This document shows, piece by piece, positions 118 through 6,177 of a DNA stretch of 6,265 bases. Source of the DNA: a virus (lineage: Duplodnaviria > Heunggongvirae > Uroviricota > Caudoviricetes); the IMG/VR virus record IMGVR_UViG_2737471834_000004; one strand, 5' to 3'. How positions within the stretch are numbered: position 1 is the first letter of the stretch; every line of letters begins with the position of its first letter. The notes beneath the pieces were generated by a model. It was given only the letters and a program-made list of their open reading frames with translations. It made no database searches and had not been told where the DNA came from. Both the position numbers and the translations under genes were made by a program.

Positions 118-2790
118 TTACTGAATACCGTATTTCTTCTCGCGGACAGAAAACGCAATATGTCCGCCTTCAAGGATAGAGCAAATATGATGTCTTATAC
201 CTTGTTGCATTCTTATATTACCATCTTCTATTGCTCCCACTTCATAACTGATAACATCACCATCATAATTAGCAACAATTACTTGTTCTGAATCAGAGTT
301 AATAACCAGATTTGCATTGTGTGTAACAATGATTACTTGTCGATATTTTTTTATTTTTTTGAACAAAGGAACCAATTGCTTCATAATAAAACTATTATCA
401 AGATCATCCTCTGGCTGATCAAATACAAATGGGCTACCAAAAGGATCTGTTGCAAGTTTCAAGCTTACATAAAAAGTCCCACGCTGGCCAACTGATAGTT
501 GGTCAACAGTCTTACCTTTATAGGTAAATTCCGCATTAACATATAAATAATTCTTTATCTTTTCTGGAGAAAACAAATAATGCATTAATTCATATCGTCC
601 TCCTTGATTAAAGTACTCACTTTTCCAGAAAAAATCCTCTATTGTAATTAATTCACCATCTCCATCCGTGCTAATTACTTTATCATTGTTTAACAGCTTA
701 ACAAAATCAGTATATGATTGTACATTAAATGTATCCGTTAACTTTTGTCGTGTTGATTTTTCATTTGATGCTCTAAATTTCCCGCGATTAATACAACCTT
801 CTAATCCTGCATAGAACTTATCATTATCAAAGATAATTGACCCACGAATATTTATGTCGGATAAAATATCTCTAACAATCTGGTTTTGCTCTTTGTTCCA
901 ACTATCATTTTCAATATGAAGAGAATCGTATAAAGATTGTATTTCTGTAACTTGCTCTTCTATATATTTACTATATTTCACTGCAAAATCACTGCGCTCT
1001 CTTACATAAGCAAAGTATCGTTTTTTATTTTCCTCTATTTCTTTTATTTTAGCCTTCGCTTTATCTATGTTTTCTTGATATTCACTTAACTTACTTAACA
1101 ACGATGACACATCCTGATTAATACCTTGATCAAGGAAAGATTTTTTAATTTCTTCATTTTTTAACCTCACAGCCTCTATATCATCATTAATCACACGAGC
1201 ATTTTTTTCTAAAATCTCATAGTAAACAGAAGCATCTGTCAAAGGTAATTCAGGCACAATAACAGATAATTCATTGTAACTTTTAATACGTTCGTTAATT
1301 TCAGAAAAACCTCTTCGAATAAAAGCAATCAACTCTTGATTTCTACTCAATGCCAACTGGAGTTTGTTAATTGACTCAGAATTTTTCTGATATTCAACAA
1401 TGAGTTCTTTATTTTTAGGATTAGTTAATGTTTCAGTTAGCTTTTGATTTTCTTCAATAATTTTTGTCTGGAATGCATCAGTATTAATTCTATTTCCATA
1501 ATTATCTGATTGCGTCCAATAATCTACGAACGTTCTATATTTCGAAAGATTATCTAGCAATAAACTCATATTTGCAGAGTCATATTGTTTTTCTCTAATC
1601 CCAAGCATTCTTTTAATTTCACTGCTTAGGCTTTCTGGATTTTTTGCAAAATTAACAATGTCACCTTGTGAAACATGGAGATAACTATATGGTGATGAAT
1701 TCTCCGAGTTAAACAAAATAGAGGATTCTTCACCATAACCTTTATCTAAGAATACACTTACACCTTTAGCGACCACGTTTCTTTCCGATGTTAAAAAGGA
1801 ATCTGGCATTAATACTTTTTTCATTGCATCAAGGAATATACTTTTCCCAGTGCCTCTACCACCAATTATTGAAACCATATTCCTATTTAATGGTATTGTC
1901 TGTTCTTTAAAGGAAAGATTATTTCCCTCGAAAATATTACCTGATAAATTTATCTGACTAAAATACGGTTTAACGTATGATAAATCAATAAAATCATCTG
2001 ATTGTTGAACCCTTTCCGCTGGCTCAAATAGAGTTTGTCGTAACCCTTGGAATGACGGCTTTGCTTTTACCCAAGTATATTTACTACCAATCTGATTAAA
2101 ATCATGTGCATCAGAGCATACAAAAACTGGTTTTCTAGGAGCATCTTCATATCGTGTATCTGATAAAAAGAAATCACGATCTCTGGGCCGCCCCAATACA
2201 ATATCCCCTAATTTATCGATTTCTTTTGCAACAGCGACCGAACGCCCCTCTTTCTTCTCTGGGTGAAATCCACCATATCCATTAGGACAAATCGCTATAA
2301 AGAAATCCCTGCCAATAACAAAGTCATTTTTTAGGCCTTCGCACAATGTTTCATAATTGATAATTGCCTCATTAAAGTTAATACCCGACTCATCCATAGA
2401 ATCTTTACTACACCAAATAGTCTTTCCATCATCTGTGGTGTTTTGAAGTTTTATTCTTGATAACACCTTATTTATTTTTTCTGATGGTATATCTTCAGAA
2501 AAAATTGCATGTATATTTATCCACTCACCAGATTTATTGGGCTGCGCAATTCTAAATTCAATATTTGCCAATATACACACAGCATATTCTTTCTCAGAAA
2601 ATTTCTTGCGTATAGTTTCAAGCTCATCTTTTGCTAAAAACCAATAATTTGTCACAGCAATAAGTTTTAAATTATTTTTAATAACAGCATCAACATATAA
2701 ATCAATATCCTTTGGTTGATAGTTGTTATTGACATGCGTTAATGGTGAATGTATGTGAAGATCCCATTTATTCCAAGTTGAACCAATCAT
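118..2790 (-). CDS. PHP-domain phosphoesterase fused to SMC/Rad50-like ABC ATPase with coiled-coil insert; candidate anti-phage defence protein
   Basis: Uninterrupted 890-codon ORF, ATG at 2790-2788, TAA at 120-118, AGGA about 7 nt upstream of the ATG. Hand-counted motifs: PHP motif I DLHIHS (aa 10-15) and terminal SDAH (aa 226-229); Walker A GGRGTGKS (aa 309-316); K/E/Q/L-rich region aa ~440-650; ABC signature-like LSVGQ (aa 765-769); Walker B-like FVFDQPEDDLD (aa 788-798); H-loop VTHN (aa 822-825). Strongly AT-rich, Asn/Lys/Ile-rich codon usage unlike the flanking P4 core. Confidence 0.85.
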   Translation of the reverse strand: MIGSTWNKWDLHIHSPLTHVNNNYQPKDIDLYVDAVIKNNLKLIAVTNYWFLAKDELETIRKKFSEKEYAVCILANIEFRIAQPNKSGEWINIHAIFSEDIPSEKINKVLSRIKLQNTTDDGKTIWCSKDSMDESGINFNEAIINYETLCEGLKNDFVIGRDFFIAICPNGYGGFHPEKKEGRSVAVAKEIDKLGDIVLGRPRDRDFFLSDTRYEDAPRKPVFVCSDAHDFNQIGSKYTWVKAKPSFQGLRQTLFEPAERVQQSDDFIDLSYVKPYFSQINLSGNIFEGNNLSFKEQTIPLNRNMVSIIGGRGTGKSIFLDAMKKVLMPDSFLTSERNVVAKGVSVFLDKGYGEESSILFNSENSSPYSYLHVSQGDIVNFAKNPESLSSEIKRMLGIREKQYDSANMSLLLDNLSKYRTFVDYWTQSDNYGNRINTDAFQTKIIEENQKLTETLTNPKNKELIVEYQKNSESINKLQLALSRNQELIAFIRRGFSEINERIKSYNELSVIVPELPLTDASVYYEILEKNARVINDDIEAVRLKNEEIKKSFLDQGINQDVSSLLSKLSEYQENIDKAKAKIKEIEENKKRYFAYVRERSDFAVKYSKYIEEQVTEIQSLYDSLHIENDSWNKEQNQIVRDILSDINIRGSIIFDNDKFYAGLEGCINRGKFRASNEKSTRQKLTDTFNVQSYTDFVKLLNNDKVISTDGDGELITIEDFFWKSEYFNQGGRYELMHYLFSPEKIKNYLYVNAEFTYKGKTVDQLSVGQRGTFYVSLKLATDPFGSPFVFDQPEDDLDNSFIMKQLVPLFKKIKKYRQVIIVTHNANLVINSDSEQVIVANYDGDVISYEVGAIEDGNIRMQQGIRHHICSILEGGHIAFSVREKKYGIQ

Positions 2791-2838
2791 TTCTATTCCT
2801 TATCATTAATTGCTATATGTAAAAATAGATCCAGACGC

Positions 2839-2866
2839 ATTTTAAGCCAACAATAAAGATCTTCAA
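2839..2866 (-). promoter_or_regulatory. Candidate sigma70 promoter for the cargo gene
   Basis: On the minus strand: -35 TTGAAG (2866-2861), 16-nt spacer, -10 TAAAAT (2844-2839), about 45 nt upstream of the ATG at 2790. Pattern match only. Confidence 0.3.
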
Positions 2867-3023
2867 TAATAATCCACCCTATCGTCACTTTTTAAGCAGT
2901 TATATACTGATGAAACTGAACATTTCCATCTAATAACCCGAAAATTCGTTCATCTCCACATGTATGTAATGACAGGCTCCCCACGTAATGCCCTATAAAG
3001 TCTTTTTGGTAATAATACGCGCG

Positions 3024-3042
3024 GTGCTTTCCCCGCCTCGCC
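3024..3042 (-). other. cos: cos site (19-nt P2/P4-type cohesive end)
   Basis: Plus strand gtgctttccccgcctcgcc is the reverse complement of GGCGAGGCGGGGAAAGCAC, which I recall as the P2/P4 cohesive-end sequence. It lies downstream of psu, as in P4. Confidence 0.75.
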
Positions 3043-3066
3043 CGCCCGCTTTGCAGGGCGGTTTTA
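3042..3066 (+). terminator. GC hairpin plus T-tract abutting cos
   Basis: Stem ccgccc (3042-3047) / gggcgg (3056-3061), 8-nt loop, then TTTT (3062-3065) on the plus strand. Could terminate plus-strand transcription entering the cos/psu region or be a packaging-related structure. Confidence 0.3.
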
Positions 3067-3142
3067 ATGCAGTTGCACAGTCACGCTCAGGCCGTGCCGG
3101 GCGTGGCCTGGTCTGCAGGAAATGAGGCGGGAAAACGCATGC

Positions 3143-3176
3143 AAAGCCATGCACCTTATCGATGCATGGCTTTTTT
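3143..3176. terminator. Bidirectional intrinsic terminator between psu and cos
   Basis: Perfect 8-bp stem gccatgca (3146-3153) / tgcatggc (3163-3170), flanked by AAA upstream and TTTTTT (3171-3176) downstream on the plus strand. On the psu (minus) transcript the hairpin is followed by UUUGCAUGCGUUUU. Sits about 38 nt past the psu stop. Confidence 0.5.
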
Positions 3177-3207
3177 CAGTAAAAACGGGCGGATTTTTCG
3201 GGGAGTT

Positions 3208-3780
3208 TTACACAGACTGACGTGATGCCAGTTCTGCACTTTTACGCGAAAAAATCATGTTCTGCGCAGGGGTGAATTTTTCACGGCTGTCATCCACCGA
3301 AGCCGCGTCAGGCCTGAATCCGATGGTCGTTAAAATGTTGCTATCCTGTGCGGAATAATTAATTTTTTCCCCCTTCGCAAGCCAGGACAGAAGGGCTTCA
3401 CGCAGGGCATCTGTGGCACGCTGTATGGCACAGTTTCGGGCAATGGCCGTCAGCTCACTGTAGCCCATCAGCTCCGGTGCCAGTGCGGCCGCCAGTGCTG
3501 TGCCGTGCTGCTGCATAAAATCATTCAGCCGCTCGCGGATGCTGATGTGCTGAACGGCTTCATGCGAACGAACATAACGACCGGCGGCCTGATTCACCTG
3601 CCATTTTCTGACTTCGATAATATTGCGTAATTCGTCCAGGCGACTGACGTTTCTGCCTTCCCCGGACAGAAGCCGCAGATATTCCTGTTCGGCTGCCGCC
3701 AGTTCATTTTTGCGCTGAAGCCATGCCGCTTTGTTATTCTGGCAGACCTCAAAAGCCTGCTGTAATGACATTGTGGTCAC
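3208..3780 (-). CDS. psu: Psu (polarity suppression protein; Rho antagonist and capsid decoration protein)
   Basis: 190-aa ORF, the size I recall for P4 Psu, in the expected position after delta and before cos. The codon at 3780-3778 is GTG with AGGAGA about 7 nt upstream; an alternative ATG lies at 3771-3769. Identity asserted from memory, not searched. Confidence 0.85.
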   Translation of the reverse strand: MTTMSLQQAFEVCQNNKAAWLQRKNELAAAEQEYLRLLSGEGRNVSRLDELRNIIEVRKWQVNQAAGRYVRSHEAVQHISIRERLNDFMQQHGTALAAALAPELMGYSELTAIARNCAIQRATDALREALLSWLAKGEKINYSAQDSNILTTIGFRPDAASVDDSREKFTPAQNMIFSRKSAELASRQSV

Positions 3781-3794
3781 ACCCCGTCTCCTGA

Positions 3795-4040
3795 TTAATG
3801 GTTGAATGGTGAGCTGTAACAGCCTTTAACTTTTCGGACAACAGCCGGTGCTGTGCTTACCGGTGCTGGTTTTTCCTCCGTGACCGGAGAACGAATCACG
3901 GCACAAATTGACTCATGCGTTTTAAATGTCGCCGAACAGTAAATATTCTGGCACTGCAGATAACTTTCTTTGACATTGTCACTCACATACCGGCTGGTGC
4001 GGGTATGCGCTGAATGACGACAGAAAGGGCAGCGCATCAT
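3795..4040 (-). CDS. delta: Delta/Ogr-family zinc-finger late-gene activator, single-domain form
   Basis: 81 aa with C-x2-C...C-x4-C (CPFC ... CQNIYC) typical of the Ogr/Delta family. ATG at 4040-4038 overlaps the sid stop as ATGA (4037-4040). Located between sid and psu as in P4. Confidence 0.85.
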   Translation of the reverse strand: MMRCPFCRHSAHTRTSRYVSDNVKESYLQCQNIYCSATFKTHESICAVIRSPVTEEKPAPVSTAPAVVRKVKGCYSSPFNH

Positions 4041-4771
4041 GACAGCAGTCCTCTGGCCTTAAGCTCTGCTCCCTGCTGGTCTATTTTGTCCTGCCACACC
4101 TTGCGCTGTGCCGGTGTGCCTGCCACCTCATAATCCATGTGCGGGAGTGTTGCCGCTGACAGCCCGGTCAGCCGGAGAACCGGCTCGCCGCTGAGGCTGA
4201 TTTGTATCTGTTTAATTTTCTGTTCCAGCGATGATTTCACCTGCTGCATGACAGCCTTTTCCGGTGCGACGTAGCCCTGATGGCCGGTGGTGTTGGCGAG
4301 CGGATTTTCCTGTACCAGGATGCTCAGATGCATTGCCCGGACAAGCACCTCACAGGTTTCATTCAGGGCGTGTTCCAGCTCATGCTCTGCATACAGACTC
4401 AGAAGGTGATGATGTGCCTTCCGGTAGGCGGTGGCCGTGCTGTCACACGCCCCTTTCAGGCGTTCACGTTCGAAATTCAGCACCACGGCCAGATTGTCAT
4501 ATTCCTGTACCAGCTCCCGGCGTGCCACGCGCTCAATGTGGCGCTGTTTCAGCTCGTCGCTCAGGACACCACCGGCTGCACGAAAGGCCGTGCGCCAGTC
4601 GTCAGCGTCGTTTCCGTCGGCCTGCGTCAGCGCATTTTTTTCCTGCTCTGCCCGTTCAATGGCCGTGACGGTCTCATCCATCAGGCGGGCGTTCTCAAGA
4701 TGGGCGGCTCTGGACTTTTCCAGTTGTGCCAGTGCGGGTTGCAGATATTCAGGGATAGTGTGGTCAGACAT
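4037..4771 (-). CDS. sid: Sid (capsid size determination, external scaffold)
   Basis: Start placed at the ATG 4771-4769 (MSDHTIPEYLQ...), giving 244 aa, the size I recall for P4 Sid, with GAGGAG 8 nt upstream. The ORF-track start at 4837 is rejected because it lies upstream of the predicted Psid start site. First gene of the sid-delta-psu operon. Confidence 0.85.
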   Translation of the reverse strand: MSDHTIPEYLQPALAQLEKSRAAHLENARLMDETVTAIERAEQEKNALTQADGNDADDWRTAFRAAGGVLSDELKQRHIERVARRELVQEYDNLAVVLNFERERLKGACDSTATAYRKAHHHLLSLYAEHELEHALNETCEVLVRAMHLSILVQENPLANTTGHQGYVAPEKAVMQQVKSSLEQKIKQIQISLSGEPVLRLTGLSAATLPHMDYEVAGTPAQRKVWQDKIDQQGAELKARGLLS

Positions 4772-4861
4772 TTTCCGGCTCCTCGTCACTTCAGGTTGAG
4801 AAAATTGTGACGTACACCGGACAACAACACGACGCATTGCAGATGTGCCAGCCCTGACACA
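4772..4861 (-). promoter_or_regulatory. Psid late promoter with Delta/Ogr box
   Basis: TGT-N12-ACA dyad (tgtgccagccctgacaca) at 4844-4861. Placing its centre near -55, as for P2/P4 late promoters, puts the start site near 4797, downstream of the ATG at 4837 and upstream of the sid ATG at 4771. Confidence 0.55.
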
Positions 4862-4915
4862 GGAGACTCATCCTCAGACCGGCAAGCCAGGAAAAGGTCG
4901 CAGGAAAAACCGGCT

Positions 4916-5090
4916 TACTGTTTGTTTTTTTATATTTTACTGTTCACCTCTGTTCACCATAAGAAAAAAGATAAGTAATACAGTAAGTTAAAGGGTGAAC
5001 AATCGCAGTAATGACTGTTCACCGTCTGTTCACCACTGTTCACCCGTTGATGGGCTTTTTGTGCTGTTTATTACTGTTTGTTTTTATTAA
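4916..5090. repeat. crr-like iteron cluster (alpha-protein binding type I repeats, TGTTCACC)
   Basis: Direct copies of cTGTTCACC at 4940-4948, 4950-4958, 5015-5023, 5026-5034, 5036-5044 (10-11 bp phasing) and an inverted copy GGTGAACA at 4994-5001. Flanked by two copies of tactgtttgttttt(t)at at 4916-4933 and 5072-5087. TGTTCACC is the octamer I recall for P4 ori/crr. Confidence 0.65.
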
Positions 5091-5148
5091 TTCGTCGGGA
5101 ATGAATAAGAAAAAACGATTTGTATTTCACTATAAAAATTACGAATTG

Positions 5149-5178
5149 CTTTAAGTGGCTTTAAATGACTTTAAGTGG
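5149..5178 (+). promoter_or_regulatory. Three tandem 10-bp repeats upstream of PLL; candidate operator
   Basis: ctttaagtgg (5149-5158), ctttaaatga (5159-5168), ctttaagtgg (5169-5178), exactly contiguous and in helical phase, about 30 bp upstream of the PLL Delta box. Confidence 0.4.
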
Positions 5179-5203
5179 AGATGAACAAAAAACACACAAG
5201 CAT

Positions 5204-5275
5204 TGTAAGGCTGCCGGAACAAATCCCCCCTGTTGCGTCTGCTGAAAATATTCACAAAATAAAACGCTACCCGAA
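5204..5275 (+). promoter_or_regulatory. PLL (Delta-activated late-left promoter) with Delta/Ogr box
   Basis: TGT-N12-ACA (tgtaaggctgccggaaca) at 5204-5221. Predicted start site near 5268, about 55 nt upstream of the vis ATG and about 395 nt upstream of the candidate PLE start site, matching the ~400 nt PLL-PLE spacing reported for P4. Confidence 0.5.
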
Positions 5276-5323
5276 GCCGGACGGACTTATCCGGTGCTGT
5301 ATGGACATTAACGAGGTAGCCCG

Positions 5324-5590
5324 ATGCAAGCTGTTTTTTCTTCCCCGTCTCCTGCCCCTGTGACGCCACTGATGCCGCTGCCGGACATCACACAGGAGCG
5401 TTTTTTACGTCTGCCGGAAGTGATGCACCTGTGCGGCCTGTCACGCTCGACCATCTATGAACTCATCCGTAAGGGGGAATTTCCGCCGCAGGTGAGTCTT
5501 GGCGGTAAAAATGTGGCCTGGCTGCACTCTGAAGTCACCGCATGGATGGCCGGCCGCATTGCCGGACGCAAACGGGGGTATGACGCATGA
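5324..5590 (+). CDS. vis: Vis / AlpA-family helix-turn-helix regulator
   Basis: 88 aa with AlpA-like HTH core ([29 protein letters not shown] ... [12 protein letters not shown]). GAGG 7 nt upstream of the ATG at 5324. First ORF downstream of the PLL candidate, as for P4 vis; stop TGA overlaps the next ORF start as ATGA (5587-5590). Confidence 0.75.
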
Positions 5591-6177
5591 TGATGCCCGC
5601 TCTGCAAAAACTCCCTTTTTCTGGCTTGCCTTTTTCCGGCATTTGCGGATATAGTTTTTCCGTTGCCGCAAAATCGGCAGCCGGGCGTGAGAACCCGTGT
5701 AACTCGAAGGCGACATATGACGCGCCATGCGTCTTTTTTTGTGTCGCAATCAACGCCACAGAGCGCCAGATTATGGTGTGGCGTGTGGTTTGCCGTGCAG
5801 GTATGATCCTGTTCGCAATCGCATGTTATGCCACTGAGTCAATGGTAGCTCAGGCGGGGCAGCCTCCGGGCTGGCCGGTATTCTTCGAGGCCGGTATTCT
5901 CACCCCCGTCTGGGCTATCGCCATCGAGCGTGAGAACTCCGGCGATAGCAGTTATTTGCTACTCGAAGGAGGCTGCCTTATGGCTACAACCCTTACCCCC
6001 TCACACCCTGAATTTGTCTTTGTGTTTGCGGCTGTCCGTCGCGCAGACCGTCATCCCCGTATCTGCATGCTTCGCACCGTCGCCGGTGATGAACGCAGCG
6101 CCCGCCGTTCCCTTGTCCGTGACTATGTGCTCTCCCTTGCTGCCCGTCTGCCGGTGGTGGAGGTGTCCCGTGCGTAA
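5587..6177 (+). CDS. eta: Eta-like ORF (long nested ORF of the left operon)
   Basis: 196-codon ORF beginning with three consecutive ATGs (MMM) and overlapping the vis stop. P4 eta is described as 197-199 aa with three possible starts, beginning upstream of PLE and containing kil in frame. The amino-acid composition is unusual, so protein-level function is uncertain. Confidence 0.5.
5626..5655 (+). promoter_or_regulatory. Candidate PLE (constitutive early-left promoter) inside eta
   Basis: -35 TTGCCT (5626-5631), 18-nt spacer, -10 TATAGT (5650-5655). Located inside eta and upstream of kil, consistent with P4. Confidence 0.45.
5980..6177 (+). CDS. kil: Kil-like small protein (65 aa), nested in-frame in eta
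   Basis: ATG at 5980 preceded by AAGGAGG (5966-5972) with 7-nt spacing. The 65-aa product matches the reported size of P4 Kil. Ends with a double stop TAATAA (6175-6180). Confidence 0.6.

What the first reader, a model, noticed from the sequence alone, without database searches (positions are those of the whole stretch)
4844..4861. Delta/Ogr box TGT-N12-ACA upstream of sid defines Psid and argues against the longer sid ORF
The dyad tgtgccagccctgacaca lies about 80 bp upstream of the sid ATG at 4771. With the usual -55 placement the transcript would start near 4797, so the in-frame ATG at 4837 would not be transcribed. This supports the 244-aa Sid and an activator-dependent late promoter.
Basis: partly seen in the sequence, partly recalled or inferred. 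Interest (0 to 1): 0.4.

Follow-up and report, generated by a model that had tools for sequence, protein, structure and literature searches.

The report
Known P4 sid late-promoter activator site
The flagged 18-base inverted repeat is the already well-studied binding site for the Ogr/Delta activator in the late promoter (Psid) of a P4-type satellite prophage of E. coli, and it correctly shows that the capsid-size protein Sid is the ordinary 244-residue form, so the finding is right but ordinary.

Summary
The dyad is real: TGTGTCAGGGCTGGCACA on the minus strand, 4861 to 4844. The window is a P4-like satellite prophage, 97.5% identical to phage P4. From the replication origin to the sid ATG it matches P4 Psid at every base except 4798.

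A bare TGT-N12-ACA match is weak evidence (5 in the window, 1.5 expected). Conservation is decisive. In 23 of 23 sid loci, with Sid down to 56% identity, the dyad sits exactly 52 nt upstream of a CA[C/G]AAT -10 hexamer. Its arms are invariant, its centre varies, and its arms never become more complementary, which fits a protein site rather than a hairpin.

The predicted start is A4797, which puts the dyad centre at -55.5. That is the register annotated for P2 promoters PO and PP. The ATG at 4837 therefore lies at about -40, inside the promoter.

The 266-aa ORF exists only because C4798 replaces the T that gives P4 an in-frame TAA. The extension shows no codon periodicity. Its ATG is open and in frame in only 10 of 23 loci. 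All full-length homologues are 243-245 aa (one 257 aa, from an internal duplication). Only ATG 4771 has a conserved GAGGAG ribosome-binding site.

Verdict: observation confirmed, interpretation supported, already known, low interest. No transcript 5' end was measured here.

The parts
4844..4861 (-). Ogr/Delta activator-binding dyad of Psid, TGTGTCAGGGCTGGCACA. It lies at -64 to -47 (centre -55.5) from the predicted start.
   Evidence: sequence. (identical to P4). (23/23 loci; arms TGTG-CA / T--CACA invariant, four central bases variable, fixed 52 nt to the -10). (same register as P2 PO/PP).
4806..4823 (-). Second exact TGT-N12-ACA (TGTCCGGTGTACGTCACA), centred at -17.5 and overlapping the -10 hexamer. 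It may be a second, lower-order Delta site.
   Evidence: Present only in the window, P4 and L003; other clades have CAGAAT instead of CACAAT, so the ACA arm is lost. A Delta footprint at about -18 in Psid is my recollection of Julien & Calendar 1995 and was not verified here.
4804..4809 (-). -10-like hexamer CACAAT (CAGAAT in the other clades).
   Evidence: It starts exactly 52 nt after the first base of the dyad in 23/23 sequences.
4797..4797 (-). Predicted transcription start of the sid-delta-psu operon (an A, 7 nt after the -10). The leader is 26 nt.
   Evidence: Inferred from the -10 position and from the -55.5 geometry shared with the annotated P2 start sites. Not measured here.
4798..4798 (-). 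Single difference from P4 in the promoter: C here, T in P4. In P4 the T creates an in-frame TAA (4798-4796), 27 nt before the sid ATG. The C opens the frame up to ATG 4837.
   Evidence: C is the family majority: TCA at the predicted +1 in 20/23 sequences.
4835..4837 (-). Upstream in-frame ATG that gives the spurious 266-aa ORF. It lies at about -40 to -38, inside the promoter, with no Shine-Dalgarno sequence.
4779..4784 (-). Shine-Dalgarno sequence GAGGAG, 7 nt before the sid ATG.
   Evidence: Conserved as GAGGA[G/A] in nearly all loci.
4037..4771 (-). sid, encoding the 244-aa capsid size-determining external scaffold.
   Evidence: P4 sid. (homologue lengths and N-termini). (RefSeq annotation).
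3795..4040 (-). delta, an 81-aa single-domain Ogr/Delta zinc-finger activator. It is the cis-encoded protein expected to bind the dyad.
   Evidence: PF04606, E = 1.4e-18. (51% identical to the N-terminal half of the 166-aa P4 Delta). (about 47% identical to P2 Ogr).
3208..3780 (-). psu, the last gene of the Psid operon.
   Evidence: PF07455, E = 1e-87..
5204..5221 (+). Candidate activator dyad of the divergent late promoter PLL (TGTAAGGCTGCCGGAACA). A CAAAAT -10-like hexamer lies at 5255-5260, upstream of vis/alpA (ATG 5324).

Best explanation
The dyad is the upstream activator site of Psid, the late promoter of a P4-type satellite prophage.

Proposed mechanism. Psid has a usable -10 hexamer (CACAAT, 4809-4804) but no -35 hexamer, so it is silent on its own. 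A zinc-finger activator of the Ogr/Delta family binds the two TGTG-CA half-sites, centred 55.5 bp upstream of the start. The activator can come from a P2-like helper (Ogr) or from the element itself (the 81-aa Delta). It recruits RNA polymerase through the C-terminal domain of the alpha subunit, as a class I activator does. Transcription then starts at about A4797 and runs leftward through sid, delta and psu. Delta therefore reinforces its own operon.

Consequence for sid. The mRNA starts 26 nt before ATG 4771, which carries a GAGGAG ribosome-binding site. The ATG at 4837 is promoter DNA, not message. Sid is the 244-residue protein.

What is shown here: identity to P4 Psid, conservation and fixed spacing of the dyad, absence of coding signal in the extension, and presence of the activator gene.

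What is inferred or taken from established knowledge: the exact start site, binding by Ogr/Delta, and the alpha-subunit contact.
For: Identity and context
- the window is 97.5% identical to phage P4 over sid-delta-psu, the origin and ORF88.
- the 600-nt intergenic alignment is 99% identical, and the dyad, the -35 zone and the -10 are all identical to P4.
- delta (Ogr_Delta zinc finger), psu and alpA are confirmed.

Conservation
- the dyad is present in 23/23 loci. The arms are invariant, the central four bases vary, and the spacing to the -10 is 52 nt without exception, while the leader varies from 21 to 27 nt.
- position 5 of the two arms is non-complementary in all 10 dyad variants. Selection is therefore on half-site sequence, not on pairing.

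Promoter geometry
- the P2 RefSeq annotation of start sites and activator sites puts the PO/PP half-dyad (TGTGTCAG...CCA) at -64 to -47. This is the same register as here.
- no sigma-70 consensus promoter in the region.
- (PMC3152322): Ogr binds conserved inverted repeats centred at about -55 and needs contact with the alpha subunit.
- (PMC3931495): the TGT-N12-ACA consensus is stated for P2 late promoters and Ogr dependence.

Short Sid
Against: No transcript 5' end, binding assay or reporter data were available for this element. The start at 4797 rests on the -10 position and on analogy with P2.

The activator encoded here is only 51% identical to the N-terminal half of P4 Delta and has one domain instead of two. 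Its binding to this site is assumed from the known cross-reactivity of the family.

The motif alone is common by chance (1.5 expected per window).

None of the four P2 late promoters matches TGT-N12-ACA perfectly, so the consensus is loose.

The primary P4 papers (Dale 1986, Van Bokkelen 1991, Julien & Calendar 1995) could not be read here.
Confidence: 0.93

Rival explanations
1. The dyad is a chance TGT-N12-ACA match with no function.
For: Only six bases are specified. About 1.5 matches are expected per 6.3-kb window, and four other matches occur in the window. At least one of them (2105-2122, inside the 890-aa ORF) is presumably chance.
Against: It is present at the same place in 23/23 loci whose Sid proteins are only 56-66% identical. 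The arms are invariant and the centre varies. The spacing to the -10 is exactly conserved. It is identical to P4 Psid.
Confidence: 0.01
2. The dyad binds a host factor rather than Ogr/Delta. The obvious candidate is CRP at a long-spacer site (TGTGT-N8-GCACA resembles TGTGA-N6/8-TCACA).
For: The arms TGTG...CACA resemble CRP half-sites on direct reading of the sequence. A centre at -55.5 is not far from class I CRP positions (-61.5).
Against: There are 10 bases between TGTG and CACA, against 8 in the canonical CRP site. The fifth half-site base is T/C or G/C, not the A/T of CRP. The same half-site (TGTGTCAG) in the same register occurs in P2 PO/PP, where the record annotates an activator-binding site. 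The operon encodes an Ogr/Delta protein. Ogr is reported to bind such repeats at -55 (PMC3152322).
Confidence: 0.03
3. The inverted repeat acts as a nucleic-acid hairpin, either an RNA stem or terminator, or a cruciform belonging to the adjacent P4 replication origin, and not as a protein-binding promoter element.
For: It is a 7-of-9 palindrome. It lies about 60 nt from the type I iterons of the P4 origin (GGTGAACAG repeats at about 4925-5050). The origin feature annotated in NC_001609 overlaps it.
Against: No compensatory change is seen. The mismatch at arm position 5 persists in all 10 variants, and changes in the arms never restore pairing. There is no T-run after the repeat (one search lists no terminator there). 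The constraint is on distance to the -10, not to the iterons; indels occur upstream of the dyad.
Confidence: 0.02
4. The longer 266-aa ORF from ATG 4837 is translated in this variant. It would need a transcript that starts further upstream, and it would give an N-terminally extended Sid.
For: The frame is open from 4837 in the window, and in 10 of 23 relatives an in-frame ATG sits at -66. The C4798 variant is common in E. coli: 11 of 30 evenly sampled hits were 100% identical over the 101-nt segment.
Against: - The extension shows no codon periodicity.
- There is no Shine-Dalgarno sequence before 4837.
- No promoter-like site lies upstream on the minus strand.
- The ATG is absent or closed in 13 of 23 loci, and the leader has 1-nt indels in 4 loci.
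- No 266-aa homologue appears among 88 database clusters.
- P4 has a stop codon there.
Confidence: 0.02

Closest known systems
Bacteriophage P4 late promoter Psid (X51522 / NC_001609, upstream of sid at 9583)
   Same: The sequence is the same from the origin iterons to the sid ATG, including the dyad, the second TGT-N12-ACA, the -10 and the Shine-Dalgarno sequence. The gene order sid-delta-psu is the same, and so is the divergent PLL/vis arrangement.
   Different: There is one base change at -1 (C4798 in place of T), which removes P4's in-frame TAA. The delta gene downstream encodes an 81-aa single-domain activator instead of P4's 166-aa two-domain Delta.
Bacteriophage P2 late promoters PO/PP, PF and PV (NC_001895, with annotated start sites and activator-binding sites)
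   Same: The PO/PP activator site TGTGTCAGTGATAAGCCA occupies -64 to -47, exactly the register inferred here, and shares the half-site TGTGTCAG. These promoters also have a weak -10 with A at -11 and T at -7, and no -35.
   Different: The P2 sites are imperfect dyads: TGT-N12-CCA in PO/PP and PF, and TGT-N11-ACA in PV. The Psid site is a full TGT-N12-ACA. Psid also has a second match at -17.5 and a P4-family-specific conserved TCGTGTTGTTGT block at about -35 to -24.
Psid-type promoters of other P4-like satellites of Enterobacterales (loci L004-L024: Mangrovibacter, Scandinavium, Enterobacter, Citrobacter, Kluyvera, Tatumella, Klebsiella, Raoultella, Buttiauxella, Superficieibacter)
   Same: The architecture and spacing are the same: dyad, then 52 nt to the CA[C/G]AAT hexamer, then a 21-27-nt leader with GAGGAG, then sid of 243-245 aa.
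   Different: The dyad is TGTGCCA-N4-TGCCACA with an AT-rich or other centre. The -10 is CAGAAT, so the second (-17.5) TGT-N12-ACA is absent.

Membership tests
Ogr/Delta-dependent late promoter of P2/P4-type elements | Inverted repeat of the TGT-N12-ACA type upstream of the core promoter | tested here: met
   Exact match at 4861-4844 on the sid strand. Conserved in 23/23 sid loci.
Ogr/Delta-dependent late promoter of P2/P4-type elements | Dyad centred at about -55 from the transcription start | tested here: inconclusive
   The centre is at -55.5 from a start predicted from the -10 hexamer, the same register as the annotated P2 PO/PP start sites. The start site of this element was not measured, and the P4 mapping paper was not readable here.
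Ogr/Delta-dependent late promoter of P2/P4-type elements | Weak core promoter: recognisable -10, no -35 consensus | tested here: met
   CACAAT lies at -12 to -7. The -35 position reads TCGTGT (2 of 6). The scan found no sigma-70 consensus promoter in 4600-5450.
Ogr/Delta-dependent late promoter of P2/P4-type elements | Sequence homology to an experimentally characterised member (P4 Psid) | tested here: met
   Identical apart from one base at -1.
Ogr/Delta-dependent late promoter of P2/P4-type elements | An Ogr/Delta-family zinc-finger activator is available (in cis or from a helper) | tested here: met
   The 81-aa ORF at 3795-4040 matches PF04606 Ogr_Delta with E = 1.4e-18. It is about 47% identical to P2 Ogr.
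Ogr/Delta-dependent late promoter of P2/P4-type elements | Transcription depends on the activator and on the RNA polymerase alpha C-terminal domain (the rpoA109 phenotype) | not testable with these tools
   This needs reporter or in vitro transcription assays. The literature statement for Ogr is in PMC3152322.
Sid, capsid size-determining external scaffold (244 aa) | Full-length homology to P4 Sid with the same N-terminus | tested here: met
   About 97% identical to the P4-type Sid cluster. 88 homologue clusters were found. The full-length ones are 243-245 aa (one of 257 aa with an internal duplication) and align from M-x-x-x-(x)-IP[D/E]YL.
Sid, capsid size-determining external scaffold (244 aa) | Position in a sid-delta-psu operon next to the P4 origin and vis | tested here: met

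The most novel reading that the evidence does not exclude
The most novel reading still open concerns the second exact TGT-N12-ACA (4823-4806, centre -17.5), which overlaps the -10 hexamer. It exists only in the P4 clade, because only that clade has CACAAT rather than CAGAAT. It could be a clade-specific regulatory addition: a low-affinity Delta/Ogr site that caps or tunes Psid output at high activator levels. Satellites with CAGAAT would lack that feedback. A related minor possibility is that the C/T polymorphism at -1 (4798) changes start-site choice or promoter strength between P4 and the many E. coli prophages that carry C.
Probability: 0.2. Interest if true: 0.25.

Novelty: already known. 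Interest (0 to 1): 0.08.

Why it matters
It matters mainly for annotation. It fixes the sid start at 4771 (244 aa) and marks 4797-4861 as promoter DNA. Gene callers should therefore not extend sid in the many E. coli P4-like prophages that carry C at 4798 and so lack P4's in-frame stop codon.

The comparative data add a small confirmation to old biochemistry. Across P4-like satellites of at least ten genera, the activator site keeps invariant TGTG-CA half-sites and an unchanging 52-nt distance to the -10. That is what a helper-triggered class I activation switch predicts.

It opens no new question.

Tried and rejected
Literature. I tried to read the primary papers and none is held. These were Julien & Calendar 1995 (PMC177091 and PMID 7601839), Van Bokkelen et al. 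1991 (PMC207153), and two PMC ids recalled from memory for Reiter et al. 1998 (PMC107552) and Christie & Dokland 2012 (PMC3518693). Full-text searches for Psid with Ogr or P2 found nothing useful, and searches were malformed. The experimental start site of P4 Psid and the Delta footprints (-55, and -18 as I recall it) are therefore cited from memory or through secondary statements (PMC3152322, PMC3931495).

Old GenBank annotation. Record X02534 marks a 'consensus -10 sequence' at L001 2246-2252. It falls inside the dyad itself (TGTCAGG). I treated it as a pre-mapping guess and did not use it.

Chance match: rejected on conservation.

CRP-type site: rejected on spacing (10 bases against 8 between TGTG and CACA) and on half-site sequence.

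RNA or DNA hairpin: rejected because no compensatory changes occur and the arm mismatch persists.

Long Sid: rejected.

Counting the C and T alleles at 4798 across E. coli genomes: this could not be done exactly with the tools. I have only a rough estimate from evenly sampled rows.

Full report
**What is in the window.**
The window is a P4-type satellite prophage of E. coli.
- On the minus strand lie psu (3208-3780), delta (3795-4040, 81 aa) and sid (4037-4771), plus an 890-aa ORF (118-2790).
- On the plus strand lies the alpA/vis homologue ORF88 (5324-5590), followed by the P4 immunity region. Rfam finds the C4 antisense RNA at 5838-5925, and isrK and c4-a1b1 at 5649-5739.
- Megablast gives 97.5% identity to phage P4 (X51522 / NC_001609) over sid, psu, the origin and ORF88.
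- Pfam confirms Ogr_Delta, Psu, Phage_AlpA and Ash.
- The same element is annotated in E. coli AF16 with the same 244-aa sid, 81-aa delta, psu, an 890-aa 'TrlF family AAA-like ATPase' and an integrase. About 155 complete E. coli genomes hold most of window 2800-4900.
- The 101-nt promoter segment occurs in 977 of 5426 complete genomes.

**The observation.**
The sid strand reads TGTGTCAGGGCTGGCACA from 4861 down to 4844, an exact TGT-N12-ACA. The motif alone is weak evidence. The window has five matches against 1.5 expected, and 4 of 200 shuffles reached five.

**Identity with P4 Psid.**
I aligned window 4740-5340 (minus strand) with P4. Everything from the last origin iterons to the sid ATG is identical except one base. 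The window has C at 4798 (ctCaacc) where P4 has T (ctTaacc). The dyad, the stretch between it and the -10, the -10 and the ribosome-binding site are unchanged. The flagged feature is therefore the P4 Psid upstream element itself, not merely something like it.

**Comparative footprint.**
- Sid homologues form 88 clusters. An alignment of diverse members retrieved 22 genomic loci, in 20 of which Sid is 56-65% identical to the window's. They come from Mangrovibacter, Scandinavium, Enterobacter, Citrobacter, Kluyvera, Tatumella, Klebsiella, Raoultella, Buttiauxella and Superficieibacter. The analyses below used 23 sequences: the window, P4 and 21 of these loci.
- A TGT-N12-ACA begins 85-91 nt before the sid ATG in all 23 sequences.
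- In the alignment the arms TGTG-CA and T--CACA are invariant or nearly so, while the four central bases differ freely: GGGC, TTTT, GAAC, TGAC, TGTT, TTTC, TGCC.
- The first base of the dyad lies exactly 52 nt before a CA[C/G]AAT hexamer in 23 of 23 sequences. The distance from that hexamer to the ATG varies, giving a leader of 21-27 nt.
- Position 5 of the two arms is non-complementary in every one of the 10 dyad variants. Selection therefore acts on half-site sequence and on helical phasing with the -10, not on hairpin formation. This is the signature of a dimeric protein site that works with RNA polymerase.

**Promoter geometry.**
With CACAAT at 4809-4804 taken as -12 to -7, the start is A4797. 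The dyad then spans -64 to -47, centre -55.5.
- The P2 RefSeq record annotates start sites and activator-binding sites for its four late promoters.
- Extracted on those start sites, the PO and PP site (TGTGTCAGTGATAAGCCA and its complement) also spans -64 to -47 and shares the half-site TGTGTCAG. PF lies within 1-2 nt of that register.
- The P2 sites are imperfect (TGT-N12-CCA, or N11 in PV), so Psid is the cleanest example of the consensus.
- No sigma-70 consensus promoter is found on either strand in 4600-5450. The -35 position reads TCGTGT.
- Open literature states that Ogr binds conserved inverted repeats centred at about -55 and needs contact with the RNA polymerase alpha subunit (PMC3152322). 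It also states that P2 late promoters share TGT-N12-ACA (PMC3931495).
- From memory, not verified here: Dale et al. 1986 mapped Psid, Van Bokkelen et al. 1991 mutagenised it, and Julien & Calendar 1995 footprinted Delta at -55 in all six P2/P4 late promoters and at a second site near -18 in Psid.
- The window does contain a second exact TGT-N12-ACA at 4823-4806, centred at -17.5 and overlapping the -10.

**The long ORF.**
ATG 4837 lies at -40 to -38, between the activator site and the -10, so a Psid transcript cannot contain it. Other evidence agrees.
- In P4 and in L003 the frame is closed by TAA 27 nt before the sid ATG. The window's C4798 turns this into CAA and so creates the 266-aa ORF.
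- C is in fact the family majority (TCA at +1 in 20 of 23 sequences), so many relatives also have an open frame. An open in-frame ATG at -66 exists in only 10 of 23. Four loci carry 1-nt indels in the leader.
- Column entropy by codon position is 0.53/0.48/1.03 in the first 147 nt after the sid start codon but 0.64/0.61/0.64 in -66..-1. The extension therefore evolves as non-coding DNA.
- GAGGAG sits 7 nt before ATG 4771 and is conserved. Nothing comparable precedes 4837.
- All full-length homologues are 243-245 aa, except one of 257 aa with an internal duplication, and they align from the same N-terminus.
- PGAP annotates the 735-nt gene even where the promoter segment is 100% identical to the window.
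- The cryo-EM model of Sid covers residues 7-241 of 244 (PMC7552001).

**Rivals.**
- Chance is excluded by conservation.
- A CRP-type site is unlikely. Ten rather than eight bases separate TGTG and CACA, and the half-sites differ at the fifth base.
- A hairpin is unlikely, because there is no covariation, the arm mismatch persists and no T-run follows.
- Translation of the long ORF is unlikely for the reasons given above.

**Verdict.**
The feature is the already characterised Ogr/Delta site of P4 Psid in an ordinary E. coli P4-like prophage. The only additions from this work are small.
- The 266-aa ORF is produced by a single-base polymorphism at -1.
- The dyad-to-(-10) spacing is invariant across P4-like satellites.
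- The -17.5 site is restricted to the P4 clade.
- The promoter is unchanged although the resident delta is a divergent single-domain allele.

Interest is low.

Noticed in passing
window 4806-4823 (- strand): A second exact TGT-N12-ACA (TGTCCGGTGTACGTCACA) is centred at -17.5 of the predicted Psid start and overlaps the -10 hexamer. It is present only in the window, P4 and L003. All other sid loci have CAGAAT as the -10 and so lose the ACA arm.
   Followed up: partly
window 4798: This is the only difference from P4 in the Psid region: C here, T in P4. It converts P4's in-frame TAA into CAA and so creates the 266-aa ORF. C is the majority state across P4-like satellites (20 of 23 sequences).
   Followed up: yes
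window 3795-4040 (- strand): delta encodes an 81-aa single Ogr_Delta zinc-finger domain. It is 51% identical to the N-terminal half of P4's 166-aa two-domain Delta and about 47% identical to P2 Ogr. The Psid site it should bind is nonetheless identical to P4's. Other E. coli prophages with the same promoter carry the 166-aa form.
   Followed up: partly
window 118-2790 (- strand): An 890-aa ORF lies between psu and the integrase side, in the variable cargo position of P4-like elements. It starts with a PHP-like motif (WDLHIHS) and has an SMC_N/AAA ATPase region. Its best PADLOC match is the Ppl defence protein (E = 5e-25). RefSeq names the identical-length protein 'TrlF family AAA-like ATPase'.
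   Followed up: partly
window 5204-5221 (+ strand): A TGT-N12-ACA (TGTAAGGCTGCCGGAACA) lies about 55 nt upstream of a CAAAAT hexamer and 103 nt before the vis/alpA ATG. It is presumably the PLL activator site. It differs from P4 at three spacer positions only. In divergent satellites the corresponding dyad has N11 or N13 spacing rather than N12.
   Followed up: partly
window 5698-5715 (+ strand): Another TGT-N12-ACA (TGTAACTCGAAGGCGACA) lies inside the Rfam isrK / c4-a1b1 matches of the immunity leader. Matches recur at a similar distance (930-990 nt from the sid ATG) in seven divergent loci. It may be conserved for RNA structure rather than for activator binding.
   Followed up: no
window 4879-4909 (- strand; about -82 to -112 of Psid): A block just upstream of the dyad (TTTTCCTGCGACCTTTTCCTGGCTTGCCGG) is as conserved as the dyad itself across all 23 loci; GACCT, CTGGC and GCC are invariant. 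It shows no covariation that would suggest a hairpin. It lies between the origin iterons and the promoter, and its role is unexplained.
   Followed up: no
window 4821-4832 (- strand): The motif TCGTGTTGTTGT, at about -35 to -24 of Psid, is almost invariant in all P4-like loci. A TGTTGC motif sits at a similar position in PLL. It is absent from the P2 late promoters, so it may be a satellite-specific core-promoter element.
   Followed up: no
L025 (P2 NC_001895) 3063-3080, 10239-10266, 17555-17583: None of the four P2 late promoters matches TGT-N12-ACA exactly. PO/PP and PF read TGT-N12-CCA, and PV reads TGT-N11-ACA. The textbook consensus is fully met only by P4-type promoters.
   Followed up: yes
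L001 (X02534) 2246-2252: The 1984 GenBank record of the P4 essential region marks a 'consensus -10 sequence' that falls inside the activator dyad (TGTCAGG). This is inconsistent with the promoter geometry found here and is probably an outdated prediction.
   Followed up: partly
L003 (URND01000141.1) and L013 (NZ_JBQPOM010000030.1): P4-like sid loci sit on contigs labelled 'uncultured Clostridiales bacterium' (97% identical to the window) and 'Vagococcus sp.'. Both hosts are Firmicutes, so this is most likely contamination or mis-binning of enterobacterial DNA.
   Followed up: no
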